NCBI GenBank assembly: GCA_041653035.1
Contig: JBAZGE010000001.1
Coordinates: 19,540 to 83,539 of the forward strand
Reading direction: 5' to 3'
Length of the DNA: 64,000 bases
Source of the DNA: Candidatus Omnitrophota bacterium
Lineage (GTDB): Bacteria > Omnitrophota > Gorgyraeia > Gygaellales > Profunditerraquicolaceae
Of the stretch, positions 13,354 to 44,906 are shown piece after piece. The notes beneath the pieces are model-generated. The model saw only the letters and a program-made list of their open reading frames with translations, was not told where the DNA came from and did not search any database. Position 1 is the stretch's first letter; each line of letters starts with the position of its first letter. A program made the position numbers and the translations under genes.

Positions 13354-14058
13354 TCATTTATTAAACCGAAAATTAATCAAATCCCCGTCTTGAACGACAT
13401 ATTCCTTATTTTCCAGCCGCAGTTTATCATGAGCGCGCGCCTGGTTAAAATCGCCCGCACTCATAAGATCCGCGTAGCTCATTACTTCCGCCCGTATAAA
13501 CCCTTTTTGGATATCGGAATGGATACACCCGGCCGCTTCCCAAGCCGAAGCCCCTTTCCTGACCGCCCAGGAATGGGAATCTTTATCGCCCGCCGTGAAA
13601 AACGATATAAACCCGAGCCCGTAATAAGCGGAAAATAATATCTTTTCCTTATTCTCGAGGTCTTCGCTTTTGACCAGAAAAAGAGGTTTCATGGTCAACA
13701 GAGGGTATCCCTGAATGATCTTTTTTTCCGCTTCGCTCAACACCACTCCGGCGAGCAATTCTTCTTTTTCCAGCATGGGTTTAAAACGATTGAATAACTC
13801 CTTCTCCACGGGGTCTTCGGTACGCTCAAGCCTGGTCTCCACAAATTCAAGATCCCCGACAATAAGATCAAACCTGCCTTTTTCGGGACAGACGATCCCG
13901 TCCGCTTCCTTGAGTTTATCGGATTCGGTAATAATGTCCGCCTGGATAAAAACCTTCTTCGCGGATTTAAACATATCCTTTAATGTATCGATCCGTTCGT
14001 CAACAATATTCCCTTTGCCTGTCGAAAATCCTTCAATGCCGAATATACCTATCTTCAA
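13354..14058 (-). CDS. YchF-like protein retaining the C-terminal TGS/DUF933 region but lacking a canonical N-terminal P-loop G-domain
   Basis: C-terminal KEYVVQDGDLINFRFNK and AAGCIHSDIQKGFIRAEV match the YchF C-terminus. The N-terminus (IGIFGIEGFSTGKG) has no GxxxxGK[ST]. 234 aa versus about 360 for YchF. Confidence 0.5.
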   Translation of the reverse strand: MKIGIFGIEGFSTGKGNIVDERIDTLKDMFKSAKKVFIQADIITESDKLKEADGIVCPEKGRFDLIVGDLEFVETRLERTEDPVEKELFNRFKPMLEKEELLAGVVLSEAEKKIIQGYPLLTMKPLFLVKSEDLENKEKILFSAYYGLGFISFFTAGDKDSHSWAVRKGASAWEAAGCIHSDIQKGFIRAEVMSYADLMSAGDFNQARAHDKLRLENKEYVVQDGDLINFRFNK

Positions 14059-14146: not shown

Positions 14147-16084
14147 TCAACTATTCTCTTCTTCCTCTTTATGATGCGCTTGATACTGACTTACAATGGT
14201 TCCGGCTATCTTGGGCGGCACCTGTTCATAATGCGAAAATTTCATGGTATAGATCCCTTTCCCCTGAGTCATGGATCGAAGGTCATTGCCGTAGGTGAAC
14301 ATCTCCGCAAGGGGAACCTGCGCTTTAACAACCTGCAGTTTACCCCTGGCTTCCATGCCTACCGGCCGGCCGCGGCGGGAATTCAAATCCCCGGATACAG
14401 CGCCCAGGTAATCTTCCGGAATAGCCACATCCACATTCATGACCGGCTCAAGCAGGACCGGGTTAGCGACCATGAATGCCTTGCGTAATCCGATCCTGGC
14501 GGCGATCTGAAACGCCATATCGGAAGAGTCAACATCGTGGTAAGAACCGTCATACACGGTAACCTGCAGATCCACTACCGGGAAACCGGCGATAATACCT
14601 TCCGCCATGGTATTCCTGACCCCTTTTTCCACCGACGGTATGAAATTTTTCGGGATAGCACCGCCAAAGACCTTATCGACGAACTCAAACCCTTTACCGG
14701 CCGTAGGGGAGACCTCAAGCCAGACATCGCCGTACTGTCCCCGTCCGCCCGATTGCCGTTTAAACTTCCCCTGGCATTTAGCGGTCCTGGTGATAGTTTC
14801 TTTATACGGTACCTTCGGTTTGCCCAGGTCAACCCCGACATTAAACCGTTTCTTAAGCCGGGCAACGATCACGTTAATATGCAGATCACCGATACCCGAA
14901 ACAACCATTTCTTTGGTTTCAGGATCCACTTTTACCTGGAACGTCGGGTCTTCCGCGGTCAGCTTATGGAGCGCCAGCGATATTTTCTCTTCATCCTGCC
15001 GGGCATGAGGTTTTATGGAAGCGGACATCATCCCCTCCGGGAACTCAAAAGGCTTAAATAAAACCGGTTTCCCCTGCTCGGTTAAAGAATCAGCGGTATG
15101 CGTCCCTTTTAATTTTGGAATGGCCACGATATCACCGCACGTTGCCGCGTCCAAACTCCTCTGCTCTTTCCCCTGCAAGAGATATATCTGCCCCATATGT
15201 TCTGTTTCTTTCCTGGTAACGTTATAAAAGACGGCGTTAGCGGCCAACTTCCCGGAAAAAACCCTGACCAGCGTCAACTGGCCCACATACGGATCAAAAA
15301 TACTCTTAAATACAAAAGCGGAAAACGGAGAGGATTCACTGAATTCAACGTTCCCTTCCGTCATTTCCAACGCCGGCCTTTCCACGGGGGAAGCGAAATA
15401 TTTCTTTATGATCTCGAGCATTTCATCCAACCCTTTATCGTTCAAAGCCGAACCGTACACAATGGGGAATATCTTGGCGGTAAGGATCGCTTTATGTAAT
15501 CCCGCTTTCACCTCGGCTTCCGAAAGCTTCCCCTCGCTTAAAAACTTTTCCAGCAGCGCGTCATCGGTCTCGGCCACCAACTCCATGAGATCATCTTCAT
15601 GGGCTTTATCCAACGGGATCGCTTTTTTAGAAAGAACCTCCCTGATTTCGCCGGTCACCTTCTCCAGATTCACATCTTCTTTGTCTGTTTTATTCACAAA
15701 GATAAGACGGGGGAGCTTTTCTTTCTCCAGCATTTCCCAGCCTCGCTCCGTGCCTACTTCTACCCCGGATGACGCATCCACCACTACGATCCCGTTATCC
15801 ACGGCCCGAATAGCGGATATGTTCTCCCCCACAAAATCAAGGTACCCGGGGGTATCAATAATCTGAATACGCAGGTCCTGCCACTCACAATGCATGAAAC
15901 TGGCATTAATCGAACTTTTGCGTTCGATCTCATCCCAATTATAGTCGCTAACCGTATTCCCCTCGGCAAGGGTTCCTTTGCGATTCGTAGTTCCGCAGTG
16001 AAAAAGCAGGCTTTCTGATAAGGTCGTTTTTCCGGCATGAGCATGTCCCAAGAGTATTACGCTTCTTTTGTTTTGAACATCCAT
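14147..16084 (-). CDS. Elongation factor G-like translational GTPase (EF-G paralog, 645 aa)
   Basis: GHAHAGKTT P-loop, DTPG and NKTD G-motifs, and EF-G domains II-V. Shorter than canonical EF-G. Confidence 0.8.
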   Translation of the reverse strand: MDVQNKRSVILLGHAHAGKTTLSESLLFHCGTTNRKGTLAEGNTVSDYNWDEIERKSSINASFMHCEWQDLRIQIIDTPGYLDFVGENISAIRAVDNGIVVVDASSGVEVGTERGWEMLEKEKLPRLIFVNKTDKEDVNLEKVTGEIREVLSKKAIPLDKAHEDDLMELVAETDDALLEKFLSEGKLSEAEVKAGLHKAILTAKIFPIVYGSALNDKGLDEMLEIIKKYFASPVERPALEMTEGNVEFSESSPFSAFVFKSIFDPYVGQLTLVRVFSGKLAANAVFYNVTRKETEHMGQIYLLQGKEQRSLDAATCGDIVAIPKLKGTHTADSLTEQGKPVLFKPFEFPEGMMSASIKPHARQDEEKISLALHKLTAEDPTFQVKVDPETKEMVVSGIGDLHINVIVARLKKRFNVGVDLGKPKVPYKETITRTAKCQGKFKRQSGGRGQYGDVWLEVSPTAGKGFEFVDKVFGGAIPKNFIPSVEKGVRNTMAEGIIAGFPVVDLQVTVYDGSYHDVDSSDMAFQIAARIGLRKAFMVANPVLLEPVMNVDVAIPEDYLGAVSGDLNSRRGRPVGMEARGKLQVVKAQVPLAEMFTYGNDLRSMTQGKGIYTMKFSHYEQVPPKIAGTIVSQYQAHHKEEEENS

Positions 16085-16240: not shown

Positions 16241-16288
16241 GGGGACGGTTCTATTTTTTTATTTTTTAAAAAAAATAGAACCGTCCCC
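16241..16288. terminator. Bidirectional Rho-independent terminator
   Basis: Perfect 20-bp inverted repeat GGGGACGGTTCTATTTTTTT / AAAAAAAATAGAACCGTCCCC flanked by an A-run on the left and a T-run on the right. Sits between kamA-like (minus, upstream) and EF-G-like genes. Confidence 0.6.
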
Positions 16289-16302: not shown

Positions 16303-16330
16303 GTAGGGGCACGGCATGCCGTGCCCCTAC
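16303..16330. repeat. 28-nt perfect palindrome GTAGGGGCACGGCATGCCGTGCCCCTAC (copy 1 of 2)
   Basis: Self-complementary. Lies 11 nt downstream of the kamA-like stop. A near-identical copy is at 60364..60395. Confidence 0.6.
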
Positions 16331-16340
16331 GATTAATGCA

Positions 16341-17525
16341 TCATTCGAAGTAGGTATAAATCTTATTCTTGTAATTCCTCAATACGTACTTACCTTTTGC
16401 CTGAGAAATGATATATCCGGGACCTATGGGGATCTTTCCGCCGCCGCCGGGTGCGTCTATAACAAAGGTGGGAACGGCATAACCGGTAGTATGCCCCCTC
16501 AACTTTTCTATGATATTGATGCCTTCGCTTACCGACGTTCTGAAATGCTGCGTCCCGCGGACCAAGTCGCATTGGTAAATATAATACGGCCTGACCCTGA
16601 TTTTGAGCAGTTCCTGCATAAGCTTGCGCATGATGTACGGCCGTTCATTGACACCTTTTAAAAGCACGGTCTGGCTGCCCAAAGGGAAACCGGAATCAGC
16701 CAGCATTTCACAGGCAACCCTGGTCCTGCGGGTTATTTCCTTGGGATGGTTAAAATGGATGCTTATCCATACCGGGCCGAATTGCTTAAGAGAAGCGATA
16801 AGCTTTTCAGTAATACGCTGCGGAAGCGTGACCGGAACCCTGGTCCCGATACGCACGAACTCTATGTGCGGAATGCTGCGCACCTTCTTCAACAGATCCA
16901 ACAAAACATCATCCTCCAAGGTCAGCGGATCTCCTCCGGAAATCAGCACATCCCGAATCTTCTTGTTTGACCGTATATACTCAATAGCCGCATCCCAGCG
17001 GGTTGTCGAATTATCCATCTGCGCTTCAGCGCCCACCAGCCTTCTTCTCGTACAATGCCGGCAATACATCGCGCAATGCTCGGTACCCAGTAGCAGCACG
17101 CGATCCGGGTACCGGTGCACTAAATAAGGCGCGGGAGAATCGGTGTCTTCACCGCACGGGTCAACCATTTCATACGGGCCGACTTTGAACTCATTGGCAG
17201 TCGGGACAGCCTGCCGCCTGATAGGGCACGCGGGATCATCGGCATCGATAAGCGTTGCCCAGTAAGGAGTAATAGCCATGGCCATCCGCCCTTTGGCGTT
17301 TTTTATGCCCTCTTCCTCTTCCGGGGTTAATTTTATCACCTGGCTTATCTGCTCCAGCTTGGTAATCCGGTTTTTCATCTGCCAATGCCAATCTTCCCAG
17401 TCAAGAGGATTAACATCTTTATACAGGCTTATTTGCTGGTAATCACGCCCTCTTCTGGTTAATCGCGTCGCTATGATATTTTCAGCAATCATCTTCTGAT
17501 TCTCTGTCGCCGCCGTATTACCCAT
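16341..17525 (-). CDS. kamA: Lysine 2,3-aminomutase (KamA-type radical SAM aminomutase)
   Basis: 394 aa, high similarity along the length to Clostridium KamA: CAMYCRHC radical-SAM cluster motif, PYYIYQCDL and DAPGGGGK regions retaining both Asp residues used for lysine epsilon-amino binding. Full-length KamA type, not the short EpmB type. Confidence 0.85.
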   Translation of the reverse strand: MGNTAATENQKMIAENIIATRLTRRGRDYQQISLYKDVNPLDWEDWHWQMKNRITKLEQISQVIKLTPEEEEGIKNAKGRMAMAITPYWATLIDADDPACPIRRQAVPTANEFKVGPYEMVDPCGEDTDSPAPYLVHRYPDRVLLLGTEHCAMYCRHCTRRRLVGAEAQMDNSTTRWDAAIEYIRSNKKIRDVLISGGDPLTLEDDVLLDLLKKVRSIPHIEFVRIGTRVPVTLPQRITEKLIASLKQFGPVWISIHFNHPKEITRRTRVACEMLADSGFPLGSQTVLLKGVNERPYIMRKLMQELLKIRVRPYYIYQCDLVRGTQHFRTSVSEGINIIEKLRGHTTGYAVPTFVIDAPGGGGKIPIGPGYIISQAKGKYVLRNYKNKIYTYFE

Positions 17526-18525
17526 TATTTATCTTCCTCCTTTTAAAGGCGTTCATCAATACAGAATCAATGATTTCATCGTATTTCATCCCGGCCGCAT
17601 ATGCCATGATCGGAAAATTTGAAGTTCTCGGGTTCAGGCCCGGCAGGGGGTTTATCTCCAGCACATAGGGAATATTATCCTTGTTCAAACGGATATCGGT
17701 CCGCGATATATCACAACATCCTATGGCGCGGTGGGTCCTGAATGCAGTTTCTTTTACCAATTTTTCCGTTTTGGCATCCAAGCGCGCAGGGCAATAAAAA
17801 GTCGGCGTCAAACCCAGTTCCTCATTACCCTGGAATTCCTTCATTCGCCATGAATAAAAATACTCTCCGCTTTTTGCGCACGAAGAAAAATCTATTTCTA
17901 AAATGGGGAGTACCCGGACGGTACCATTCTCCAATATCCCCACGGTCAGTTCCTTGCCTTCGATGAACTCCTCGGCTATGACTTCCTGCCGGTAATGCTT
18001 CAACATCTCCCGCACCCGCGCATACAAACCGTCCTTTGTTTTAACCACATTCGCGGTACTCACGCCCTTAGCCGACCCCTCGCAGTTCGGTTTGATAATG
18101 AGCGGGAATACCAGCTCCGAATCAAGTTGTTCGTCTCCTTTTGAAAAAAGCTGGAACGCCGGAGTCGGTATATTATCGGCTTTCAGAATTTTTTTGGTAA
18201 ACGCTTTATTAAGCGCCACTGCCAGGGAAAAGGTGTCGGAACCGGTGTAGGGAATGTTTAAAAAATCCAGTATGGCGGGGATATGCGACTCGCGGAACTT
18301 CCCGTTAGTGCCTTCCGCGATATTAAAAACCATGTCTGTGCGGTTATTCTTAAAATGAGAAAATAAATCCGGGCGCTCGGCATCAATAAAATCAACGCTG
18401 TGCCCGCGGGATTTCAAGGCATTGGTAATGGCATTAACGGTTTCCGGAGAGTCAAATTCGGAAAAATAATCGGGAGGCTTTGAATCGTCTTCTTTCTTAA
18501 GATTACAGGTGAGGGCTATCTTCAT
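17518..18525 (-). CDS. ATP-grasp ligase of the D-alanine--D-alanine ligase family (paralog A)
   Basis: 335 aa. Ddl-like architecture: N-domain, central PLIIKPNCEGSAKGVS, EEFIEGKELTVGIL, C-terminal DIRLNKDNIPYVLEINPLPGL. Overlaps the kamA start by 8 nt. Confidence 0.7.
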   Translation of the reverse strand: MKIALTCNLKKEDDSKPPDYFSEFDSPETVNAITNALKSRGHSVDFIDAERPDLFSHFKNNRTDMVFNIAEGTNGKFRESHIPAILDFLNIPYTGSDTFSLAVALNKAFTKKILKADNIPTPAFQLFSKGDEQLDSELVFPLIIKPNCEGSAKGVSTANVVKTKDGLYARVREMLKHYRQEVIAEEFIEGKELTVGILENGTVRVLPILEIDFSSCAKSGEYFYSWRMKEFQGNEELGLTPTFYCPARLDAKTEKLVKETAFRTHRAIGCCDISRTDIRLNKDNIPYVLEINPLPGLNPRTSNFPIMAYAAGMKYDEIIDSVLMNAFKRRKINNG

Positions 18526-18526
18526 T

Positions 18527-19525
18527 TTAGTTTAGGTTATACCGCTTGATTGCGCAGTTCAGTATCTTACCGATGATATCATCGTAGGTGATCCCCATAG
18601 CCTTGGCCACCACCATGAACACATCTTCCGACGACAAAGAAGGCAGAGGATTTATCTCCAGCACATACGGATTCCCCTGCTCATCCACCCTGAAATCGAT
18701 CCTGCCTAAGTCCTTACATTCAACAGACTCAAAGGTTTTAAGCGCCAACCTGTTGATCTTGTTTTTAAGGCCGTCGTTTATCCGCGCCGGGCACACATAT
18801 TGCAGTTTTTCCGAAGTAATGTGGCCGAAGGTATAAAACCTATCCTGCAGCTTCAGCCTGCCTTCGATCTCGATCTGGACAATCGGCATAATCTCGGGAG
18901 GCTCGTTACCGATAATCGCAACGGTAAATTCTTCCCCACGGATAAACTCCTCAACCAATGCCGGCTGTTTATAGGTGCGGATCACGTATTCCACTTGTTT
19001 TTTCAATTCCTCGGGGGTTCCCACACGGGATGATTCACTTAATCCTTTGGAAGAGCCCTCAAAACGCGGTTTTACGAAAAGCGGATATTGCAAATGGTCG
19101 GTTGATAACACGGAATTACCGTCGGGATCCGCCTTCACCTCAAAAAACCGCGGGGTGGGAATTTTATCGGCGATAAAAATCTTTTTTGCCATTACTTTAT
19201 CAAGCGTCATCCCCAGCGTCAACGCGTCCGCTCCCACAAAAGGGATACCGGCCATTTCCAGTAAAATAGGCACCTGAGATTCCCTGTTCCTGCCGCACAA
19301 CCCCTCCGAAATATTAAGCACGATATCCACATCCAGCCTGCCGATGCTGTCCAACAAAGACGAAACATTGCCGATTTTCTTCGTCTTAAACCCATTAGAT
19401 TCTATCGCGGCGGAAATACGGTCAATGGTCGAGGGATGATCAAACTCAGCGTTCGCGTCTGCCGGATCGCCTTTCTTAAATTCGTAATCTGTTTTTAAAT
19501 CGTAGGTTATGCCGACCGTTTTCAC
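18527..19525 (-). CDS. ATP-grasp ligase of the D-alanine--D-alanine ligase family (paralog B)
   Basis: Ddl-like motifs (PLFVKPRFEGSSKGLS, EEFIRGEEFTVAII, RIDFRVDEQGNPYVLEINPLPSL). The track ORF extends to 19588 (GTG). The more likely start is the GTG near 19525 (MKTVGITYDL) preceded by an AGAGGA SD. Ends 1 nt before paralog A. Confidence 0.65.
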   Translation of the reverse strand: MKTVGITYDLKTDYEFKKGDPADANAEFDHPSTIDRISAAIESNGFKTKKIGNVSSLLDSIGRLDVDIVLNISEGLCGRNRESQVPILLEMAGIPFVGADALTLGMTLDKVMAKKIFIADKIPTPRFFEVKADPDGNSVLSTDHLQYPLFVKPRFEGSSKGLSESSRVGTPEELKKQVEYVIRTYKQPALVEEFIRGEEFTVAIIGNEPPEIMPIVQIEIEGRLKLQDRFYTFGHITSEKLQYVCPARINDGLKNKINRLALKTFESVECKDLGRIDFRVDEQGNPYVLEINPLPSLSSEDVFMVVAKAMGITYDDIIGKILNCAIKRYNLN

Positions 19526-19598
19526 TGTTCCTCTTTGATTCCTTCGGTTTTGCTGCCTCTTATCCCGATGATTTGTTTCACAAATCACGGGATAAATT

Positions 19599-19650
19599 CG
19601 CGCCTATAAGCTACGGAAGTCCCCGTGGGGGACTTCCGTAGCTTATGCGC
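19599..19650 (-). promoter_or_regulatory. Very stable perfect hairpin (20-bp stem, 3-nt loop) in the 5' leader of the ATP-grasp/kamA operon
   Basis: TATAAGCTACGGAAGTCCCC-GTG-GGGGACTTCCGTAGCTTAT, extendable with GCGC flanks. About 60 nt upstream of the proposed start codon. No U-run follows, so not a classic terminator. Confidence 0.4.
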
Positions 19651-19656: not shown

Positions 19657-19687
19657 AATAAAAAAGGCTCTTCCCATATTAAGAGCC
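19657..19687 (-). terminator. Intrinsic terminator inside the leader (candidate attenuator) or terminator of the upstream UPF0280 gene
   Basis: Minus-transcript GGCUCUU-AAUAUGGG-AAGAGCC followed by UUUUUUAUU. Lies downstream of a sigma70-like promoter and upstream of the hairpin and operon. Confidence 0.45.
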
Positions 19688-19764
19688 TCAGTCTATGCAC
19701 CCGTTTTTTTTCACGTTTTTTAACCACCCTCCTGTAGTTTTCTCCTACATCTTGTATTGACGGT

Positions 19765-19796
19765 ATAAATTTATCACAACCTGTTGTCATTGTCAA
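19765..19796 (-). promoter_or_regulatory. Sigma70-like promoter (TTGACA-N17-TAAATT) for the ATP-grasp/kamA operon
   Basis: Minus-orientation TTGACAatgacaacaggttgtgaTAAATT. The only good -35/-10 pair in the 250-nt intergenic region. Confidence 0.4.
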
Positions 19797-19838: not shown

Positions 19839-20645
19839 TTATGCGATCTCAAAACAACTGCCCCATCCGGCCATATGATTCCCCAGCACAACGATCACAC
19901 CGCGTATTCCTTTGATCGAACGCGCAAAATCAATCGCCCCGGCGCAGTCTCCCTTCGCGTTTACCCGGTTTGCGGCGGCAGTGGCGACGGCATCGGCTAA
20001 CGCCGCATTCCCCGCCGCGACCACCACGCTATCCGCGATACCGAAGCTCAACGAATGGCCGACGGTCCCCGAAGAAGCGCAAATCCCCAGTGGAGTACCC
20101 CGGGGTTTTATTTTCAGGCGCAGGGAGTTTAAAACGCTGTTTTTACCGTGATAAAAACCAACCCGTATATCGCGGGTGATACGCATAAAAATATCGCCCC
20201 CGTTCTCCACAATAACATCGGTATACCCTTTGCGCAGAATATCCCTGCCCACAAACTGCGCGATCGCTCCGGCAACCGCCGCCATCGGGCCCACATTGGC
20301 GGCAAAAGCCTGCCGGGCCATTTCCCTGACGATCGGCTCGGCCCGTAATTCAACCGCAATTGGTTTCAACGACGTGAGAAACCGTTTATCTTTATAATTA
20401 ATGTAATCTTCGATCGCCCCGCGGTAAAGGCCGATCCTGCGCAGCACAAAAGCACGATCCAAAGGCTTATTGGTAAGAATCTGCACGTCGGTTTCTTTAA
20501 CCACGATCTCTTCTGTATACAAACCTTTCGGATATACCCAATCCCGGTAAAAACGGCGCTGAAAACGGGCATTTTTCATATGTACCTTCGTGAGAAACGG
20601 CCGCGGCCGTTCCCTCTTCTCCCCGGTTACGCATGAATTCCGCAA
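19839..20645 (-). CDS. UPF0280/ApbE-like family protein
   Basis: 268 aa. GPMAAVAGAIAQ and IVENGGDIF motifs reminiscent of the ApbE-like UPF0280 family. The start is probably the internal Met (MKNARFQ). Confidence 0.45.
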   Translation of the reverse strand: MRNSCVTGEKRERPRPFLTKVHMKNARFQRRFYRDWVYPKGLYTEEIVVKETDVQILTNKPLDRAFVLRRIGLYRGAIEDYINYKDKRFLTSLKPIAVELRAEPIVREMARQAFAANVGPMAAVAGAIAQFVGRDILRKGYTDVIVENGGDIFMRITRDIRVGFYHGKNSVLNSLRLKIKPRGTPLGICASSGTVGHSLSFGIADSVVVAAGNAALADAVATAAANRVNAKGDCAGAIDFARSIKGIRGVIVVLGNHMAGWGSCFEIA

Positions 20646-21256
20646 GAAGAGAGATCGATTTTTAATTGTTCGACGCCCCGGTAAACGAATCCTTTTATCC
20701 CGAGGGACAGCGCCCCTTCGATAAGTTCCGGACGGTCGTCGGTATAAAAAACAGTCTGCGCGGGCATTGCCAGCACCTCCAGCGCTTTCCTGTAAATCCG
20801 CGGATCGGGTTTGATGACGCCCGTTTCGAAAGAAGTGACAACGGCGTGAAAAACGTCAAAGACGGGAAAATGCTCTTTCAGGTAGTTGTAATGCAGGACA
20901 TTAATATTGGACAGGAGGAGAACTTTGTATCGTTTCCGCAACCCCTTAACCAGGCCATACAAAGCTTTATTCTCATCGCTGAGAAAAAAAATCCCGTTCC
21001 ATACGGGGAGAAAATCATCATATTCCATGCACAGGCCAAGCGCCTCTTTTATTTTCAAAAAGAATTCTTCGGGAGACAGTTTTCCTGCTTCAAACAACTG
21101 GGTCAGCCCCGAAGAAAAAAAAAGGTCATATACTTCCTGCGGCGTCTTATGCATGACTCCGGAAAGTTTCCGGGCGGCGATCCCATGATCAAAGTCAACA
21201 AGCACCCGGCCTAGATCAAAAATGATACCTTGAATCGATGCGTTCGATTGCGGCAT
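20627..21256 (-). CDS. HAD-superfamily hydrolase
   Basis: 209 aa. N-terminal IIFDLGRVLVDF (HAD motif I-like), later LLLSNIN and a C-terminal FYTDD motif. Confidence 0.7.
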   Translation of the reverse strand: MPQSNASIQGIIFDLGRVLVDFDHGIAARKLSGVMHKTPQEVYDLFFSSGLTQLFEAGKLSPEEFFLKIKEALGLCMEYDDFLPVWNGIFFLSDENKALYGLVKGLRKRYKVLLLSNINVLHYNYLKEHFPVFDVFHAVVTSFETGVIKPDPRIYRKALEVLAMPAQTVFYTDDRPELIEGALSLGIKGFVYRGVEQLKIDLSSCGIHA

Positions 21257-21281
21257 ATATAATTAACTGGTCGCTTCCGGT

Positions 21282-22283
21282 TTAATTATTCCTGTCCCGT
21301 TTATCCTTAAATAAATCCAGGAACCGGTCTTCATATTCCTTATACACATTCCACTTATCCAGCTCGGCCTTCAATTCCTGCGCCTTAGTGAGATCCTGCT
21401 TGACCTGCGAGAAAAGTTTCTCGATCCTCTCTTTGATTGAAAGCGGGAGTTTGGTAAGCTGGCTGAGCGACTTTTTTATTTTCTCTATTTCGTCTTCTCC
21501 GATCGGCCCCGGGGCAGGGCCCACCTTCAGATAATCGAGCAGACTGTTAATCTGATTCTCCATGACCTGCGCCTGTTCGGTAAGTTCGGAAAGGTCGACC
21601 TTCTTATTCAGGATCTTGCACAGTACCTCCAATACAGCCTGCGAGGCGCGGGGATTTTCAACCTGGATGGTATAGAGCGGGATCTCCCCCAGCAGGCACA
21701 GGCCGGGAAACCCCTCCCGTTTGGCGATACCCAGAAAAAGCCCGTTCATCCCGCTTATCTGCCCCTCGGATAACATACGCAGATCGTATTTTTTCATCTC
21801 GTTGTTGATCGCCGCCGCCGTAGCCGTATACCACACCCCGGGCGGCTGGGTATGCTCGATCGGCTGGGGCATGGCCGCGAAGCCGAAAATCGTTTTTACC
21901 TTGTAATGCCTGGCTACCGAAAGGATCCTCCGGGAATACTCCTCCGCGAGCGCCAGGTCCGGCTGGGCGTCGCTTACGAAAAATATCAGATCGTTCTTCC
22001 CCTCCTTATTTTTATAAAAATAAAACCTGCTGAACGGCGGCTCCGGGAGATTAAGGACACCCCCCCGCACCGTGCTTTCGGTCAGGTAAAAAAAATCCAT
22101 CGACGGGATCTCGGCGAATTCTTCCGCCTTCAGTTTATGCACCAGATATGTCGCCGCCTTAAAAGCCACCTCTCCCATGCCGGGCCAGGCGACTATCAAA
22201 TACGGATTTTTCAATTTCGGCCTTCTGCAGAATTTTATTCCTTCCATAACACTCTCCGGGTTAAACCCGAACTTCTCATGCAC
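21282..22283 (-). CDS. PAC2-family protein (proteasome-assembly-chaperone-2-like)
   Basis: 333 aa. N-terminal LIVAWPGMGEVA... and central GFAAMPQPIEH pattern resemble PAC2/COG2047 proteins. Coiled-coil C-terminus. Assignment by recall only. Confidence 0.5.
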   Translation of the reverse strand: MHEKFGFNPESVMEGIKFCRRPKLKNPYLIVAWPGMGEVAFKAATYLVHKLKAEEFAEIPSMDFFYLTESTVRGGVLNLPEPPFSRFYFYKNKEGKNDLIFFVSDAQPDLALAEEYSRRILSVARHYKVKTIFGFAAMPQPIEHTQPPGVWYTATAAAINNEMKKYDLRMLSEGQISGMNGLFLGIAKREGFPGLCLLGEIPLYTIQVENPRASQAVLEVLCKILNKKVDLSELTEQAQVMENQINSLLDYLKVGPAPGPIGEDEIEKIKKSLSQLTKLPLSIKERIEKLFSQVKQDLTKAQELKAELDKWNVYKEYEDRFLDLFKDKRDRNN

Positions 22284-22291
22284 AATCCGGG

Positions 22292-23434
22292 TTAAAATTT
22301 GTAAATTTTCAGGAATTCTTCCAGCATGCGAGCGCCCTTGTACAAATTATCGACCTTTGCATACTCATCCACGGTGTGCGCACAGCCGCCGCATCCAAAG
22401 CCGGTGGCTACCGCGGGTATATTTTTATGTTGAAAAAAAGTTATTACCGTTGCCCCTTCCGACCCCTTGATCCGGGCCCGGACACCGGTGGCGCGTGCCG
22501 CCTGTTTTAAAAACACCACCAGCGGATGTTCTTCGCCGATATAATACGGATTTTGAATACCTTCGATTTCAACGGTAAACTTCCGGGCATGTTTCTTCGT
22601 TATCGCCCGCAGGTCTTTCAGTATCCTCTGTGCGTTCATCCCGGGAAGATACCGAAAATCCAATTCGCACTCACACCAGTCCGCAACCACATTTACCTTA
22701 TCTCCTCCGCGCATAGTCCCGATATTCACCGTGGCCGGCCGCAGATAAGCACTGCCCTGCTTTTGAACGCCCGGTTCGTACCTGAATCTATACGCCTTTA
22801 TCTCTCCGAGAATCCGTACAGCCGCGTCTATGGCGTTTCGCCCGAGCCAGGGATATGCGCCGTGCGCCCGTTTCCCTGCAATGATGAGCTTCAAATGCAT
22901 AAGCCCCTTTTGGGCCACAATCACCTCGAAATCATCCGCGTCCAGCACCAGGGCCGCGTCAGGCTTCAGGATACCCTTATCAAGAAGCGGGATCAAGCCC
23001 AGTCCGGAACCACTCTCTTCATCAGCGGTAGCGGCGAACAATAGATTATAGTCTAATTGAATTCTATCTTCAACTAAACTTTTTATAACCTCCATAAGAC
23101 ACGCCAGATTCCCCTTACAATCGGTTGTCCCCAGGCCGTACATCTTCCCGCCGGAAACGATCCCCCGAAACGGGGGAAATTTCCAATTCTTGCCAGCCGG
23201 GACCGTATCCAGGTGAGGAGTCGCCAGCAAGGAACGTTTTTTGTCCCGGCCCTTAAAAACCGCCACAACGTTCGGCCGGCCTTTTTTAAACTCATATATC
23301 TTAGACTTGATCCCCAGCCCCTCTAAATATCCGGTCACAAAACGGGCTATACGGATTTCATCACCCGGGGGATTCTCCGAGTTGATGCCGATCAATTTCC
23401 CGGTTAACGCGATAAGCCTTTTTTGATTGATCAT
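22292..23434 (-). CDS. M20-family metallopeptidase/deacylase (ArgE/DapE-like)
   Basis: HLDTVP, GLGTTDCKG and ATADEESGS metal-binding motifs. Likely start is MINQKRL at 23434 (the track ORF starts at 23479). Confidence 0.75.
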   Translation of the reverse strand: MINQKRLIALTGKLIGINSENPPGDEIRIARFVTGYLEGLGIKSKIYEFKKGRPNVVAVFKGRDKKRSLLATPHLDTVPAGKNWKFPPFRGIVSGGKMYGLGTTDCKGNLACLMEVIKSLVEDRIQLDYNLLFAATADEESGSGLGLIPLLDKGILKPDAALVLDADDFEVIVAQKGLMHLKLIIAGKRAHGAYPWLGRNAIDAAVRILGEIKAYRFRYEPGVQKQGSAYLRPATVNIGTMRGGDKVNVVADWCECELDFRYLPGMNAQRILKDLRAITKKHARKFTVEIEGIQNPYYIGEEHPLVVFLKQAARATGVRARIKGSEGATVITFFQHKNIPAVATGFGCGGCAHTVDEYAKVDNLYKGARMLEEFLKIYKF

Positions 23435-23658
23435 CAGTGAGAACAGGTGGCACAATTGTGGCTTGAACAACCACTGCACCCCGAAGAAGAAGCGGTCAGC
23501 GCGCCGCTTTTATCCCGCGAGGCAAAAGAAAAACCGGACATCAGGCGGTTTAAGTCCGCCTTACCGCACTTCGGACAAATTACTTTTTCTCCGCTGCTGC
23601 GCACCAGGAACTCAAATCGATGGCGGCATTTATTACAATTGTATTCGTAAATCGGCAT
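23434..23658 (-). CDS. FmdB-family zinc-ribbon protein
   Basis: 74 aa. MPIYEYNCNKC...CPKCG CxxC pairs at the N-terminus, Ser/Cys-rich tail. Confidence 0.7.
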   Translation of the reverse strand: MPIYEYNCNKCRHRFEFLVRSSGEKVICPKCGKADLNRLMSGFSFASRDKSGALTASSSGCSGCSSHNCATCSH

Positions 23659-31687: not shown

Positions 31688-32512
31688 TTAGGTAATCTCC
31701 AGGTTCACTATATTATCTATCCTAAACGTCCGCGCCTCATTCCGCACAGTGCAGAGACCGAGAAGATACGCATGTCTCCCGTCTTTTTTTATCTGGCGGG
31801 GAAGGACGCTCCGTTCCGAGACCCGGGCATCCCGGTTGGACAAGTATTTTATTTTCACTCGCACGCCCAGGCTTATCGCTTCCTGCAATTCCGCTATTCG
31901 CTGCGTATGGATATCCCGCAGATAATCCGAATCAAGGCCAAAAAGATGTACCATATTCTCAAACCCGCATATCCCTTTTTTTTTCAATTCCGCCGTCAGA
32001 GAATCAAAAACCTCCACCGTCAGGGCCGCATCGGAAAGGGCGCGGTGTTCCTGCCGCTCTTCCATCCCCAGGGTCTCCGCCACAAACCAAAGAGCATGGC
32101 GCTCAAGAGCAGGCAAAAGCTTTTTTGCCATTTTTAATATGTCGATCACAACCAAGCCGTGTAAGGGAAAATCCGTCTCCGCTAATCTAACCTCATTATA
32201 CAAAAAAGCCATGTCGAAGCCGGCGTTGTAAGAACACAGGCACGAATCGCCGACAAACTTTAAAAATTCCGGCAAGACCGCTTCCATGCGCGGCGCCTGC
32301 GCCACCATATCCGGACTGATACGATTAACCCGGAAAGCGGCTTCGGATATCGGACGCTGGGGATTAATCAATGACTGGAATTGAGCGACCTTCCGGTTGT
32401 TAACCAGTTTAACCGCCGCTATTTCCACGACACGATCGCCGAATTCCGGATTCAAACCGGTAGTTTCCGTATCAAATATGGTAAATACTATATCGTCTAT
32501 GTTTTTAGCCAT
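31688..32512 (-). CDS. DEDDh 3'-5' exonuclease (DnaQ/RNase T-like) with C-terminal WYL-like domain
   Basis: Exo I FDTETTG, Exo II YNAGFDMAFL, Exo III HRALSDAAL. C-terminal RSVLPRQIKKDGRHAYLLGLCTVRNEARTFRIDNI fits the WYL-domain consensus. Confidence 0.7.
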   Translation of the reverse strand: MAKNIDDIVFTIFDTETTGLNPEFGDRVVEIAAVKLVNNRKVAQFQSLINPQRPISEAAFRVNRISPDMVAQAPRMEAVLPEFLKFVGDSCLCSYNAGFDMAFLYNEVRLAETDFPLHGLVVIDILKMAKKLLPALERHALWFVAETLGMEERQEHRALSDAALTVEVFDSLTAELKKKGICGFENMVHLFGLDSDYLRDIHTQRIAELQEAISLGVRVKIKYLSNRDARVSERSVLPRQIKKDGRHAYLLGLCTVRNEARTFRIDNIVNLEIT

Positions 32513-33428
32513 GCCTTAAGCCGCCTCTGTTTTTTCGCTGCACCAGATAAGCCGGAACCGCATATGCAGGATAATAGGAACGCTTAACTTTCTTGAGGTT
32601 CTCCAACCCTGAATCATCCATGATATTGATATAGGCATACTCTTTAAACTCGGCGCAGAAATTCCTGAAAATAAACTGGCTCAAGCCTTTGACGGCGCGG
32701 TCGGCAATCTCATACAAAACACAGAACGTGTCTTCGCACACCGGGAAACCAAAGGTAAACGCCTTTATCCGGCCGTCAATCTTCACTACTCTGCCCGTAC
32801 AATGCAAGCGATCGTAATCACCCAGCAGAATTTTCAGGGAGTTCAAACCATCACGCATCATCCCGGTGTACACCGGGTCTTTATTCCCGATACCGCGCTC
32901 GTGCATCCATCGGTTATACAACGCGATACACGCCTCCCCGGATTCCGGAAAGAACGATGCGTATTCACCATGGTAATGTTTCACGAAATAATTGACCCCG
33001 GACCGCTTGGATTTAAATCGATCCCCCCGCAACCCCGCCATATCCGTCTGTTTACAAAGGTAGTCGCAGGATTTCAAAACCGAATCGTATCCCCACGCTT
33101 TATACCGCGCGATATCCCCTTCTTCCACGTTTTCTATGCGGGATAAAGACGCGTCCCGGTTATGTTCCGCCATCACCGCAAAAGCTTTCTCTATCACCAG
33201 AGGGCTTTTCTCTATGCCCAACGGGGGAAGGTACATGAAACAACTTATCCCGTCTTTAAAAAAAACGCACAATTCCCCGTCAATGATCATCCAGAATATC
33301 TCGAACAAACCCTTCCATATATATATATTCGGGAAGGCATAGACGGAAAGCCGGTGTTTTTCCAAACCCAGGAAGCGATCAAAAACACGTCTGTCTTGCA
33401 TGTGGAGAATACGGGATTTGCCGGTCAC
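32505..33428 (-). CDS. DUF2156-like protein (homolog of the MprF C-terminal aminoacyl-tRNA-dependent transferase domain)
   Basis: 307 aa. C-terminal GLENLKKVKRSYYPAYAVPAY resembles the GLxxFKxKFxP...Y ending of DUF2156/LPG-synthase C-domain proteins. 8-nt overlap with the exonuclease gene, 4-nt overlap with ykgJ. Recall-based. Confidence 0.5.
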   Translation of the reverse strand: MTGKSRILHMQDRRVFDRFLGLEKHRLSVYAFPNIYIWKGLFEIFWMIIDGELCVFFKDGISCFMYLPPLGIEKSPLVIEKAFAVMAEHNRDASLSRIENVEEGDIARYKAWGYDSVLKSCDYLCKQTDMAGLRGDRFKSKRSGVNYFVKHYHGEYASFFPESGEACIALYNRWMHERGIGNKDPVYTGMMRDGLNSLKILLGDYDRLHCTGRVVKIDGRIKAFTFGFPVCEDTFCVLYEIADRAVKGLSQFIFRNFCAEFKEYAYINIMDDSGLENLKKVKRSYYPAYAVPAYLVQRKNRGGLRHG

Positions 33429-38884: not shown

Positions 38885-39343
38885 TTACTGCCCCCCCAGC
38901 TTGCCCAGGATACCGAGCGTAAAGGCCATCACGAACAAAGCCACGGTCTCGGCCATGCCCAGGACCACAATATAATTCCCGAATCCTTTATTGGTCTCTC
39001 CCATGGCGTCGCAGGCGCTGGCGGCGCATTTGCCCTGCCAGTACGCGCTTAAACCTATAGCGAGCCCGGCGAAAGCCCCGACTCCCCAAAGATACTGTCC
39101 TTTGGCGGCAAGTTCATACATCTTATTCATCACGATCATCCCGTAAATGGTCTGCGTAAGCGGCGCGCCCACAAAAGCAATCAGCATGAACGATGCCGTT
39201 TTATTCTGCGCATAATTTTTTTTCCACGCGCCGATAGCAGCCATGCCGGCCGTACCTGCGCCTGCGGCAGAACCACAGGCAGACAAAGCAAGAACCAGCG
39301 CGAATCCCAAATCCTTGAACTGCACAAGCACATTTCCTTCCAT
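38885..39343 (-). CDS. ntpK: V-type ATP synthase subunit K (proteolipid)
   Basis: 152 aa, four hydrophobic helices, Gly/Ala-rich (GAGTAGMAAIGA...), conserved Glu in the last helix (MAETVALF). Confidence 0.8.
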   Translation of the reverse strand: MEGNVLVQFKDLGFALVLALSACGSAAGAGTAGMAAIGAWKKNYAQNKTASFMLIAFVGAPLTQTIYGMIVMNKMYELAAKGQYLWGVGAFAGLAIGLSAYWQGKCAASACDAMGETNKGFGNYIVVLGMAETVALFVMAFTLGILGKLGGQ

Positions 39344-39356
39344 AGTTTCCTCCCGG

Positions 39357-41734: not shown

Positions 41735-41744
41735 AAACCAAGTT

Positions 41745-41838: not shown

Positions 41839-41848
41839 GCATAAAAGT

Positions 41849-43147: not shown

Positions 43148-43154
43148 GGTTTTG

Positions 43155-44894: not shown

Positions 44895-44906
44895 ATTTTT
44901 TCCCGG

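What the first reader, a model, noticed from the sequence alone, without database searches (positions are those of the whole stretch)
16341..19588. KamA-type lysine 2,3-aminomutase in a tight operon with two paralogous Ddl-family ATP-grasp ligases: candidate undescribed beta-lysine ligation pathway
Three genes are packed ligase-ligase-aminomutase, with a 1-nt gap and an 8-nt overlap. Upstream is a dedicated promoter/leader and downstream a bidirectional terminator, so they form one transcription unit. The aminomutase is full length and collinear with Clostridium KamA. It keeps the CxxxCxxC cluster motif and both Asp residues (in CDL and DAPGGGGK) that bind the lysine epsilon-amino group, so the product should be beta-lysine rather than beta-glutamate or beta-arginine. 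The known fates of beta-lysine need partners that are absent here: EpmA (EF-P beta-lysylation), the GNAT AblB (N-epsilon-acetyl-beta-lysine), or NRPS machinery (streptothricin-type). Instead there are two D-Ala-D-Ala-ligase-family enzymes, a family that condenses two free amino/hydroxy acids with ATP. The simplest reading is ATP-dependent synthesis of a beta-lysine-containing di- or tripeptide, or a short beta-lysine oligomer. That product could be an osmolyte, a cell-wall precursor variant or a secondary metabolite. I am not aware of a characterised pathway with this composition.
Basis: partly seen in the sequence, partly recalled or inferred. Interest (0 to 1): 0.8.

Follow-up and report, generated by a model that had tools for sequence, protein, structure and literature searches.

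The report
Uncharacterised beta-lysine ligation operon
A tightly packed three-gene operon couples the enzyme that makes beta-lysine to two ATP-dependent ligases related to D-alanine-D-alanine ligase; the trio is conserved in Omnitrophota and, with additions or gene fusions, in Ignavibacteriota and many archaea, so it probably makes a beta-lysine-containing small molecule that has not been described.

Summary
Three minus-strand genes (lig1, lig2, KamA) lie 1 nt apart and 8 nt overlapping, between a dedicated leader and a bidirectional terminator.

Two corrections. lig1 most likely starts at 19525, not 19588. The aminomutase is not full length: it stops at the equivalent of Clostridium LAM residue 367 and lacks the Zn/oligomerisation cysteines.

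KamA keeps every lysine-specific catalytic residue. Both ligases keep the ATP-grasp catalytic residues but fail all Ddl family thresholds and have lost Ddl substrate residues (His63 to Glu throughout the family, Tyr216 lost).

The order lig1-lig2-KamA recurs in 79 of 80 related species-level loci, all from MAGs and mostly labelled Omnitrophota, while the flanks vary. More than 100 protein clusters are KamA-ligase fusions. Tandem ligase-ligase fusions are also common. In Ignavibacteriota, including cultured Rosettibacter firmus, the set is ligase-ligase-GNAT-KamA.

A conserved leader with an intrinsic terminator precedes lig1 in 77 of 81 sequences searched and occurs nowhere else in them.

No held paper describes the combination.

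Best reading: a beta-lysine-containing small peptide or amide is made in two ATP-dependent ligations. The product and its role (possibly a compatible-solute-like metabolite) are inferred, not shown.

The parts
19768..19796 (-). Promoter-like site (TTGACA, 17 nt, TAAATT with TG extension) of the operon
   Evidence: The consensus scan matches 10 of 12 positions. The number of such sites in the region is no higher than in shuffles, so on its own this is weak. Related loci show a TACAAT -10-like element at the same relative place.
19657..19744 (-). Conserved leader / candidate attenuator. It has four elements: AGGAGG (19733-19728); after 13 nt a GTG followed by an A-run (19714 onward; possible mini-ORF MKKNGCID*, 19714-19688); a terminator hairpin (19689-19664); and a T-run.
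   Evidence: Covariance model R1, built from 33 leaders, finds this element once per locus in 77 of 81 sources. Each hit is immediately 5' of lig1, and there are no other hits in 1.35 Mb on either strand. The window hit scores 57 bits, E=4.6e-6. RNAalifold supports only the terminator hairpin, where 2 pairs show compensatory changes. There is no Rfam match. In 22 of 51 parsed loci the T-run ends 35 nt or less from the lig1 start, which leaves no room for a separate promoter.
19559..19650 (-). Optional two-hairpin module between the terminator and lig1. Hairpin A is a 19-bp near-perfect stem, GCGCATAAGCTACGGAAGT...; then comes CGAATTTATCCCG, followed by hairpin B ending ...CGGGATAAG.
   Evidence: The 235-nt leader folds at -88 kcal/mol, z=-8.9. 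The module is present in 7 of 79 related leaders, with conserved flanking words and variable loops. It occurs only once in the window. Its function is unknown.
18527..19525 (-). lig1: Ddl-like ATP-grasp ligase, about 332 aa from the GTG at 19525. The longest ORF reaches 19588.
   Evidence: Pfam Dala_Dala_lig_C scores 6e-39. It is below all Ddl cut-offs. It keeps K97, K144, E180, E187, R255, D257, E270 and N272 (E. coli DdlB numbering). It differs at H63 (Glu), G276 (Ser) and S281 (Asp), and no Lys aligns with K215. Median identity over 80 related loci is 70%.
17518..18525 (-). lig2: Ddl-like ATP-grasp ligase, 335 aa, a paralog of lig1
   Evidence: Pfam scores 7e-34. It is 35% identical to lig1. 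It keeps all the ATP/Mg residues plus K215, G276 and S281, with H63 replaced by Glu and Y216 lost. The AlphaFold model has pLDDT 86 and pTM 0.87; its best PDB matches are Ddl structures at TM 0.77-0.79 and only 20-30% identity. The family-specific insertion at residues 15-23 is the one low-confidence segment. A 100% identical protein is on record from a Candidatus Omnitrophota MAG.
16341..17525 (-). Short KamA-type lysine 2,3-aminomutase, 394 aa
   Evidence: It matches 2A5H at 479 bits over LAM residues 6-367. TIGR03820 AblA scores 509.2 against a cut-off of 525.4; the TIGR00238 KamA family scores 357 against 199. The catalytic and lysine-binding residues are kept, while Cys268 and the C-terminal tail are absent. 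Its start overlaps the end of lig2 by 8 nt, and an overlap of 5-10 nt is the rule in related loci.
16241..16288 (.). Bidirectional intrinsic terminator that closes the operon. A second hairpin at 16303-16330 lies directly after the stop codon.
   Evidence: The terminator has a 20-bp stem with T-runs on both strands; the sequence is. The downstream EF-G paralog has its own promoter-like site (TTGACC-17-TATAAT, 16230-16202).

Best explanation
The operon is the minimal form of a widespread, uncharacterised biosynthetic module.

Step 1 (strongly inferred from residues). The short KamA converts free L-lysine to beta-lysine by the radical-SAM/PLP mechanism.

Step 2 (inferred). The two Ddl-like ATP-grasp paralogs probably act together as a hetero-oligomer. 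Each would use ATP to activate a carboxylate as an acyl phosphate and join it to an amine. Together they would form two amide bonds around beta-lysine. The product would be a small beta-lysine-containing peptide or amide: a di- or tripeptide, or a short beta-lysine oligomer.

Variation in other lineages. The same core carries tailoring enzymes: most often a roughly 157-aa GNAT, sometimes a MurL-like ATP-dependent enzyme or a LysA/FslC-like decarboxylase. This pattern is typical of a free metabolite whose charged ends are capped. The closest comparisons are N-epsilon-acetyl-beta-lysine and the dipeptide osmolyte NAGGN. The Omnitrophota version has none of these in the operon, so its product would be uncapped and more cationic.

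Regulation (inferred from anatomy). Expression depends on read-through of an intrinsic terminator in a conserved leader. The signal may be ribosome occupancy of a very short, A-rich, Lys-codon-bearing leader ORF.

Physiological role. A compatible-solute-like or other abundant cytoplasmic metabolite is the least certain part of this reading.
For: Linkage.
- The order lig1-lig2-KamA is kept in 79 of 80 species-level loci, while the flanking genes vary. L075 and L081 share only the trio.
- Overlapping stop and start codons between lig2 and KamA are the rule.

Fusions.
- KamA-ligase fusions (Radical_SAM + LAM_C + Dala_Dala_lig_C) appear among the library representatives.
- More than 100 clusters at 90% identity are such fusions. 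They are labelled Thermoplasmatota, Methanocellales, Woesearchaeota, Nanoarchaeota, Spirochaetales and Deltaproteobacteria.
- 33 of the 150 best lig2 representatives are tandem ligase-ligase fusions in which both halves keep the catalytic residues.

A sample chosen by KamA similarity.
- Of 80 metagenome loci picked only by similarity to the KamA-ligase fusion, about 60 have adjacent Ddl-like ligases.
- The commonest layout is L-L-GNAT-K: 20 complete and 4 truncated.
- The layout is confirmed in the cultured Rosettibacter firmus.

Substrate.
- D293, D330, R134 and K337 are invariant in all ligase-associated KamAs examined.
- The ligase family replaces Ddl His63 with an invariant Glu and has further invariant acidic residues (E23, D25, E71, E79). 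That fits a cationic substrate.

Not a Ddl.

Regulation: a leader specific to this operon.

Context hints of ion or osmotic homeostasis: Na+/H+ exchangers with TrkA_N in L083; MscL, Na+/H+, Na+/Ca2+ and CorA genes in L088.

Literature: no held paper combines an aminomutase or beta-lysine with an ATP-grasp ligase in this sense.
Against: - No product has been observed; the chemistry rests on homology and gene linkage alone.
- The ligase substrates are unknown, and the role of the acidic residues is a guess.
- lig1 lacks an aligned K215 and has changes at G276 and S281, so it could be a non-catalytic or differently acting partner.
- The osmolyte idea is weak for this organism. The Omnitrophota MAG records name groundwater, lake, peat and other samples that I take to be mostly low-salt. 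The operon lacks the GNAT that would neutralise charge. The ion-transport neighbours were seen in only two loci.
- The window also encodes two spermidine synthases, so a role as a polyamine substitute is not needed.
- The identity comparison with neighbouring genes is biased, because the loci were chosen as the best lig2 matches.
- The leader-ORF reading has exceptions. Two loci have start-stop (TTG/GTG TAA), three or four have no Lys codon, and the spacing from the SD-like block to the start is long, about 13 nt.
Confidence: 0.6

Rival explanations
1. Protein modification. Beta-lysine made by KamA is attached by the ATP-grasp pair to a lysine or a carboxylate of a protein, for example a translation factor. 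This would be a non-orthologous replacement of EpmA/EpmB-type EF-P beta-lysylation, or a RimK-like tailing.
For: - The EpmB/EpmA system is a precedent for KamA-like enzymes feeding a protein modification, and RimK is a precedent for ATP-grasp protein ligases (my own knowledge).
- In Omnitrophota the operon often sits next to an EF-G paralog (45-47 loci) and a YchF-like gene (62-64 loci).
- Strong sequence conservation would suit a housekeeping role.
Against: - The aminomutase is LAM/AblA-type, not EpmB (509 against 240 bits).
- The EF-G gene has its own promoter-like site beyond a terminator, and is absent from many loci that keep the trio.
- The same core occurs in archaea, which use aIF5A/hypusine rather than EF-P (my own knowledge).
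- The ligases have the Ddl fold, a small-substrate type, not the RimK type.
- The partner enzymes elsewhere (GNAT, FslC/LysA-like decarboxylase, MurL-like enzyme) look like small-molecule tailoring.
- No efp gene is in the window.
Confidence: 0.12
2. Homo-oligomer or polymer. The two ligases start and extend a chain of beta-lysines. This would resemble the beta-lysine tail of streptothricins, epsilon-poly-lysine or cyanophycin, but be made by ATP-grasp enzymes.
For: - Two catalytically competent paralogs, and three ligase domains in L090, L091 and L092.
- The acidic substrate pockets suit a substrate that is cationic at both the donor and the acceptor site.
- The Omnitrophota operon encodes no enzyme that would supply a second building block.
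Against: - Ddl-type enzymes are known for single condensations (my own knowledge).
- lig1 and lig2 differ at acceptor-site positions (S281 against D281, G276 against S276). That suggests two different acceptors rather than repeated use of one.
- The GNAT, decarboxylase and MurL-like partners in other lineages fit a defined small product better.
Confidence: 0.13
3. An ordinary cell-wall gene next to an unrelated one. One or both ligases are the organism's D-Ala-D-Ala (or D-Ala-D-X) ligase, and KamA is adjacent only by synteny.
For: - The best sequence and fold matches are Ddl enzymes.
- Public annotations call these proteins 'D-alanine--D-alanine ligase'.
- No other ddl was seen in the 64-kb window.
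Against: - They score below all curated Ddl and Van cut-offs.
- His63 and Tyr216 are lost and the N-terminal substrate loop is rebuilt.
- KamA-ligase fusion proteins exist in over 100 clusters.
- The system occurs in lineages labelled Thermoplasmatota, Woesearchaeota and Nanoarchaeota. Archaea do not make murein (my own knowledge).
- There is no mur or ftsQ context.
Confidence: 0.03
4. Catabolism. KamA begins lysine fermentation, as in Clostridium and Fusobacterium, and the ligases are incidental.
For: KamA is about 60% identical by eye to the fermentative C. subterminale enzyme (alignment).
Against: - No beta-lysine 5,6-aminomutase, 3,5-diaminohexanoate dehydrogenase, or the cleavage enzyme and lyase that follow it (kce, kal) was found in the window or in any related locus examined.
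- The conserved partners are ligases.
Confidence: 0.02

Closest known systems
AblA/AblB pathway for N-epsilon-acetyl-beta-lysine (methanogens, some bacteria)
   Same: A LAM-type lysine 2,3-aminomutase makes beta-lysine. TIGR03820 is the best-scoring model here. In most lineages other than Omnitrophota the cluster also carries a GNAT.
   Different: - Two Ddl-like ATP-grasp ligases are the invariant partners, and they have no counterpart in AblAB.
- The Omnitrophota operon has no GNAT.
- The GNAT elsewhere is small (about 157 aa) and did not hit any beta-lysine acetyltransferase model; its best matches are weak RimI and AAC(6') hits.
- The KamA lacks the C-terminal region and falls just below the AblA cut-off.
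NAGGN pathway (Ngg + AsnO) for the dipeptide osmolyte N-acetylglutaminylglutamine amide
   Same: The logic is the same: non-ribosomal, ATP-dependent peptide-bond formation combined with N-acetylation, and further capping of the C-terminus, to give a cytoplasmic solute. The role of Ngg is described in PMC8070244. Ligase-GNAT fusion proteins exist in this family too (L083, L091, L102).
   Different: The building block is different (beta-lysine from a radical-SAM enzyme), the ligase clade is different (Ddl-like), and there are two ligases. No AsnO-type amidotransferase was seen. The resemblance is analogy only; no homology was tested.
D-Ala-D-Ala ligase (Ddl) and VanA-type ligases
   Same: Same fold, and the same ATP/Mg and transition-state residues. 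The presumed acyl-phosphate mechanism is the same.
   Different: - Below the family cut-offs.
- Substrate residues are changed.
- There is a family-specific N-terminal insertion.
- The ligases are paired or fused as heterologous tandems, or fused to KamA.
- There is no cell-wall gene context.
EpmB/EpmA beta-lysylation of EF-P
   Same: A KamA-family aminomutase supplies beta-lysine to an ATP-dependent ligase.
   Different: EpmB scores far below its cut-off here (240 against 369). The ligases are ATP-grasp enzymes, not class-II aaRS paralogs. The system is also found in archaea.
Carnosine synthase and other ATP-grasp L-amino-acid ligases (BacD, RizA, BL00235)
   Same: These are ATP-grasp enzymes that make free dipeptides. 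Carnosine synthase uses a beta-amino acid as its carboxyl donor (my own knowledge).
   Different: The sequence relationship is only distant (BL00235 E=9e-9 against Ddl 4e-29). No aminomutase partner is known for them.

Membership tests
Lysine 2,3-aminomutase (KamA/AblA, EC 5.4.3.2) | Radical-SAM CxxxCxxC cluster motif | tested here: met
   C125, C129 and C132 equivalents are present in the window protein and in 12 relatives. Pfam Radical_SAM scores 4.9e-12.
Lysine 2,3-aminomutase (KamA/AblA, EC 5.4.3.2) | PLP-binding lysine (K337) and lysine-specific Asp293/Asp330 plus Arg134 | tested here: met
   All four are conserved in the window protein and in all ligase-associated KamAs aligned.
Lysine 2,3-aminomutase (KamA/AblA, EC 5.4.3.2) | Curated equivalog score (TIGR03820, cut-off 525.4) | tested here: not met
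   The score is 509.2 bits, just below the cut-off, because only model positions 6-360 of 417 are matched. The KamA family model TIGR00238 is passed (357 against 199).
Lysine 2,3-aminomutase (KamA/AblA, EC 5.4.3.2) | C-terminal oligomerisation region with the Zn site (Cys268 plus a C-terminal Cys cluster in the C. subterminale enzyme) | tested here: not met
   Cys268 is Arg here, and D/S/N/R in relatives. The protein ends at LAM residue 367, and in fusion proteins the ligase begins at that point.
Lysine 2,3-aminomutase (KamA/AblA, EC 5.4.3.2) | Enzymatic conversion of L-lysine to beta-lysine | not testable with these tools
   Needs an anaerobic enzyme assay.
D-alanine--D-alanine ligase (Ddl, EC 6.3.2.4) | Curated family score (TIGR01205 cut-off 245.65; NF002378 cut-off 243) | tested here: not met
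   lig1 scores 157 and 171 bits; lig2 scores 168 and 199 bits.
D-alanine--D-alanine ligase (Ddl, EC 6.3.2.4) | ATP-grasp fold with the ATP/Mg and catalytic residues K97, K144, E180, E187, R255, D257, E270, N272 | tested here: met
   All are present in both proteins. The lig2 model matches Ddl structures at TM 0.77-0.79.
D-alanine--D-alanine ligase (Ddl, EC 6.3.2.4) | D-Ala binding residues (Glu15-Ser150-Tyr216 triad, His63, Ser281/Leu282) | tested here: not met
   - His63 is Glu in every member examined.
- Tyr216 is Thr in lig1 and Glu in lig2.
- The Glu15 region is replaced by an 'EFD' motif after an insertion.
- lig1 has Asp at position 281.
- Ser150 is kept in both.
The alignment around the omega-loop is uncertain.
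D-alanine--D-alanine ligase (Ddl, EC 6.3.2.4) | It is the only ddl of the genome, or sits in a mur/fts context | not tested
   There is no mur or fts context in the window or in related loci.
EpmB/EpmA EF-P beta-lysylation system | EpmB equivalog score (TIGR03821, cut-off 369.3) and an EpmA/efp partner | tested here: not met
   The score is 240 bits. No efp gene was found by tblastn, and no class-II aaRS-like ORF was found in the window.
AblA/AblB N-epsilon-acetyl-beta-lysine system | An adjacent GNAT beta-lysine acetyltransferase | tested here: not met
   There is no GNAT in the window. A small GNAT is present in the related L-L-g-K clusters of Ignavibacteriota and other loci.
Glutamate / arginine 2,3-aminomutases | Equivalog scores (TIGR04368 cut-off 650; TIGR04468 cut-off 600) and replacement of Asp293/Asp330 | tested here: not met
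   The scores are 464 and 407 bits. Both Asp residues are retained.

The most novel reading that the evidence does not exclude
The trio is the minimal core of an ancient pathway present in both Bacteria and Archaea that no held paper describes. Its product would be a beta-lysine-derived peptide or amide metabolite. The pathway is widespread in Omnitrophota (586 confirmed hits in species-representative genomes). It also occurs in MAGs labelled Woesearchaeota and Nanoarchaeota, and in Thermoplasmatota, Methanocellales and Ignavibacteriota. The short KamA would work physically coupled to a hetero-oligomeric pair of Ddl-like ligases. In Omnitrophota the operon would be switched by a new ribosome-dependent transcription attenuator that senses lysine or translation status.
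Probability: 0.45. Interest if true: 0.75.

Novelty: new variant of a known kind. Interest (0 to 1): 0.65.

Why it matters
Beta-lysine has few known fates: acetylation to an osmolyte, EF-P modification, lysine fermentation and NRPS antibiotics. A fifth fate, ATP-grasp ligation, would add a new branch of beta-amino-acid metabolism. It would also give a function to a large block of proteins now annotated as 'D-alanine--D-alanine ligase'; lig2 alone has 1082 relatives at E<=1e-30 among 50%-identity clusters.

The module is conserved in lineages known almost only from metagenomes, such as Omnitrophota and archaea labelled Woesearchaeota and Nanoarchaeota. Its product could therefore be an important and unrecognised cell constituent there.

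The GNAT-containing version occurs in cultured Ignavibacteriota (Rosettibacter firmus, Stygiobacter electus, Melioribacter), so the question can be tested directly by metabolomics and genetics.

The operon-specific leader is a candidate new cis-regulatory element.

Tried and rejected
- Known RNA families in the leader. Rfam found nothing at gathering thresholds and nothing credible at E up to 5. Nineteen loci of other lineages had no riboswitch near the cluster.
- A structured aptamer in the leader. RNAalifold on 33 leaders supports only the terminator hairpin. I therefore dropped the riboswitch reading in favour of a leader-ORF or protein-mediated attenuator, which remains unproven.
- The two-hairpin module as a dispersed repeat. 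Its conserved words occur only once in the window.
- A link to EF-P. No efp gene is in the window or in the Omnitrophota loci.
- Distant-homolog locus search. The accepted search returned only close relatives, mostly labelled Omnitrophota, because only the best 80 are kept. Breadth had to come from the representative library, the fusion search and the metagenome scan.
- Literature. Six word combinations around aminomutase, beta-lysine, ATP-grasp, D-alanine ligase, Omnitrophota and Melioribacter found no description of the system. Iyer et al. 2009 on amidoligases (PMC3268129), the paper most likely to mention it, is not held, so prior in-silico mention cannot be excluded.
- Cluster names. The lookup gave no organism names for the library representatives.
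- Polyamine-substitute idea. It is weakened by two spermidine synthase genes in the window.

Full report
**1. The observation**

The window carries three minus-strand ORFs: 18527..19588, 17518..18525 and 16341..17525. They are separated by a 1-nt gap and an 8-nt overlap.
- Pfam assigns Dala_Dala_lig_C to the first two and Radical_SAM plus LAM_C to the third.
- The two ligases are 35% identical paralogs.
- A promoter-like site (19796-19768) lies upstream and a 20-bp bidirectional terminator (16241-16288) lies downstream.
- The next gene downstream is an EF-G paralog. It has its own promoter-like site after that terminator.

- The likely lig1 start is the GTG at 19525. It is preceded by AAGAGGAA, and the protein then begins like lig2 and like the roughly 328-332-aa homologs.
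- The aminomutase is not full length (see section 3).

A protein 100% identical to lig2 is on record from a Candidatus Omnitrophota MAG.

**2. What the ligases are**

Both proteins hit only Ddl/Van models in NCBIfam, and both fall below every curated cut-off: 171 and 199 bits against 243.

Aligned with E. coli DdlB, both keep the ATP/Mg and transition-state residues K97, K144, E180, E187, R255, D257, E270 and N272. The D-Ala site is changed:
- His63 is Glu in every family member examined.
- Tyr216 is lost.
- The Glu15 region is replaced by an insertion followed by a conserved EFD motif.
- lig1 also differs at G276 (Ser) and S281 (Asp), and no Lys aligns with K215. lig2 keeps these three.

An AlphaFold model of lig2 (pLDDT 86, pTM 0.87) has the Ddl fold. 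Its best PDB matches are Ddl structures at TM 0.77-0.79 and 20-30% identity. The only low-confidence stretch is the family-specific insertion at residues 15-23.

The ligases therefore work like Ddl (ATP-grasp, acyl-phosphate chemistry) but are not Ddl. The additional invariant acidic residues (E23, D25, E71, E79) would suit a cationic substrate. That last point is inference.

**3. What the aminomutase is**

The protein aligns with C. subterminale LAM (2A5H) at 479 bits over LAM residues 6-367.
- It keeps the CxxxCxxC cysteines, R134, D293, D330 and K337.
- NCBIfam ranks AblA-type LAM first (509 bits). Glutamate 2,3-aminomutase (464), arginine 2,3-aminomutase (407) and EpmB (240) all fall below their cut-offs. 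The KamA family model is passed.
- The protein ends at the equivalent of LAM residue 367, and Cys268 is Arg.

All ligase-associated KamAs I aligned share this shortened form. In the fusion proteins the ligase domain begins exactly where the KamA ends. The subfamily has thus lost the C-terminal region that, from my own knowledge of the LAM structure, holds the inter-subunit Zn site. I infer that it assembles with the ligases instead.

**4. Conservation of the trio**

A scan of one genome per species gave 586 confirmed hits; only the best 80 were returned. All 80 are from MAGs. Sixty are labelled Omnitrophota or Omnitrophica, 18 'uncultured Planctomycetales', one Deltaproteobacteria and one Margulisiibacteriota.
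- tblastn finds lig1-lig2-KamA in that order in 79 of the 80. The one miss is a contig end.
- The flanks vary. The EF-G paralog is present in 45-47 loci, YchF-like in 62-64, and PAC2/HAD/M20 in about 40-49. L075 and L081 share only the trio.
- Median identities are KamA 72%, lig2 71% and lig1 70%. The neighbours are lower: PurH 65%, EF-G 60%, MnmE 56% and FolC 47%. The loci were selected as the best lig2 matches, so the lig2 figure is biased upward.
- A lig2/KamA overlap of 5-10 nt is the rule.

**5. Fusions and distribution beyond Omnitrophota**

In the library of 50%-identity representatives, lig2 has 1082 relatives at E<=1e-30.
- Among the best 150, 33 are tandem ligase-ligase fusions in which both halves keep the catalytic residues.
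- Three of the 150 are KamA-ligase fusions, confirmed by Pfam.
- A search with one such fusion returned more than 100 further 90%-identity clusters with the same architecture. Their labels are Thermoplasmatota, Methanocellales, Woesearchaeota, Nanoarchaeota, Spirochaetales and Deltaproteobacteria.

Gene contexts around the fusions:
- fusion + ligase-GNAT fusion (L083);
- fusion + ligase (L088, a contig carrying a protein that NCBI labels Woesearchaeota);
- fusion + ligase + GNAT (L089, Methanocellales);
- fusion + two ligases (L090).

In 80 metagenome loci chosen only by similarity to the fusion protein, about 60 carry adjacent Ddl-like ligases.
- The commonest layout is ligase-ligase-GNAT-KamA: 20 complete and 4 truncated.
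- Other layouts are K-L-L(g), KL-L-L(g), L-L-K, K-L-p and L-L-p-d-K.
- Here g is a roughly 157-aa GNAT. p is a 441-486-aa protein distantly similar to the ATP-dependent epimerase MurL (E=9e-11, far below its cut-off). d is a LysA/FslC-like PLP decarboxylase.
- The L-L-g-K layout belongs to Ignavibacteriota. Cultured carriers include Rosettibacter firmus, where the context is confirmed in L171, Stygiobacter electus and Melioribacter sp..

Tandem ligase fusions without KamA sit next to Peptidase_S58 genes (L085-L087). I treat these as a separate branch.

**6. Regulation**

Between the promoter and lig1 lies a conserved leader. Its elements, in order, are:
- an AGGAGG-like block;
- about 13 nt later, TTG or GTG followed by an A-run (consensus TTGGAAAAA);
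- about 15-25 nt later, a GC-rich hairpin with a T-run.

A covariance model built from 33 leaders finds the element exactly once per locus in 77 of 81 sources. It is always immediately 5' of lig1 and occurs nowhere else in 1.35 Mb on either strand. The window copy is at 19657-19744.

RNAalifold supports only the terminator hairpin, and Rfam has no match. In 22 of 51 parsed loci the T-run ends 35 nt or less from the lig1 start codon. In those loci lig1 must be transcribed by read-through of the terminator.

The unstructured upstream block reads as an SD plus a very short ORF, for example MEKIG*, MEK*, or MKKNGCID* in the window. A Lys codon is usually at position 2 or 3. The stop codon lies near or inside the 5' arm of the terminator. 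This suggests attenuation in which the ribosome itself acts as antiterminator, as in pyrBI (my own knowledge).

There are exceptions: two loci with start-stop, a few without a Lys codon, and the long SD-to-start spacing. I rate this mechanism as plausible but unproven.

The window and 6 other loci carry an extra two-hairpin module between the terminator and lig1.

**7. Interpretation**

Shown here:
- the three proteins, their families and their residues;
- the conserved linkage, the fusions and the operon-specific leader.

Strongly inferred: KamA makes beta-lysine from free lysine.

Inferred:
- the two ligases act together, on the evidence of the tandem fusions;
- both are active, on the evidence of residue conservation in both halves;
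- they ligate beta-lysine in two ATP-dependent steps into a small peptide or amide;
- other lineages tailor that product by acetylation, decarboxylation or a MurL-like reaction.

Archaeal carriers, the small-substrate Ddl fold and the tailoring enzymes argue against cell-wall and EF-P-type roles. The absence of kamDE, kdd, kce and kal argues against fermentation.

The closest functional analogues are AblAB (N-epsilon-acetyl-beta-lysine) and the Ngg/AsnO route to the dipeptide osmolyte NAGGN (PMC8070244).

Ion-transport neighbours in two loci hint at osmotic or ionic homeostasis. For the Omnitrophota, which lack the GNAT and appear to come mostly from low-salt sites, the physiological role stays open.

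**8. Novelty**

Searches of the held literature found no description of this gene combination. The one comparative-genomics paper most likely to mention it is not held.

The enzyme families are known. The pathway composition, the shortened ligase-coupled KamA subfamily and the leader have not, as far as I can tell, been described. I rate the finding a new variant of a known kind, with interest 0.65.

Noticed in passing
window 19559-19650 (-); also L022, L023, L030, L038, L048, L054 upstream of lig1: A two-hairpin module lies between the leader terminator and lig1 in 7 of 79 related leaders and is duplicated in L054. The conserved words are AATGAG, CATAACTTA...TAAGTTATG and CGAATTAATCCCG...CGGGATAAG; the loops vary. 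It occurs only once in the window. It could be a second regulatory RNA or a small inserted palindromic element.
   Followed up: partly
L085, L086, L087: Tandem ligase-ligase fusion proteins of the same Ddl-like family (682-724 aa), with no KamA nearby, sit directly upstream of a Peptidase_S58 gene (the DmpA/BapA family). This looks like a sister system that makes and perhaps cleaves a different D- or beta-peptide.
   Followed up: no
L098, L099, L105 (K-L-p); L106, L113 (L-L-p-d-K); L094 (KL-d-p): Some KamA-ligase clusters add one or two further genes. One encodes a 441-486-aa protein with an SxGKDS motif and a CxxCxxC motif, distantly similar to the ATP-dependent epimerase MurL. The other encodes a LysA/FslC-like PLP decarboxylase. 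Both suggest tailoring of the C-terminus of the product.
   Followed up: partly
window 23759-26662 (-): A 967-aa protein combines a Peptidase_M1 domain with a C-terminal Omp85 (outer-membrane beta-barrel) domain, which is an unusual architecture. It is conserved in relatives such as L001.
   Followed up: no
window 698-1567 and 1572-2447 (-): Two adjacent paralogous spermidine/spermine synthase genes. They bear on the question of whether the beta-lysine product replaces polyamines; their presence suggests it does not need to.
   Followed up: no
window 19839-23479 (-): An upstream block recurs next to the operon in about half of the related loci. It comprises an ArgE/DapE-family M20 deacylase (above the TIGR01910 cut-off), a PAC2 (proteasome-assembly-chaperone-like) protein, a HAD hydrolase and a PRK04334-type hypothetical protein (tagged PF27030 AbpE_bact in a relative). 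A DapE-like enzyme could tie in with lysine supply, or could deacylate the product. This was not tested.
   Followed up: partly
window 13354-14058 (-): The YchF-like ORF is only 234 aa and matches only the YchF C-terminal domain (protein residues 151-233). The same length is called in L001. It may be a truncated YchF relative without the usual GTPase domain.
   Followed up: no
window 32505-33428 (-): A stand-alone LPG_synthase_C (MprF C-terminal, lysyl-transferase-type) protein of 307 aa lies next to a CxxCxxCC protein. It is another lysine-transferring enzyme type, 13 kb from the operon, with no evident link to it.
   Followed up: no
window 38885-45446 (-): A V/A-type ATPase gene set (subunits c, I, D, B, A and a DUF2764 protein) is present rather than an F-type ATPase set.
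   Followed up: no
window 14147-16084 (-): A short EF-G paralog (645 aa) with its own promoter-like site lies directly downstream of the operon terminator. It is present at this position in 45-47 of the related loci and absent from others that keep the trio.
   Followed up: partly
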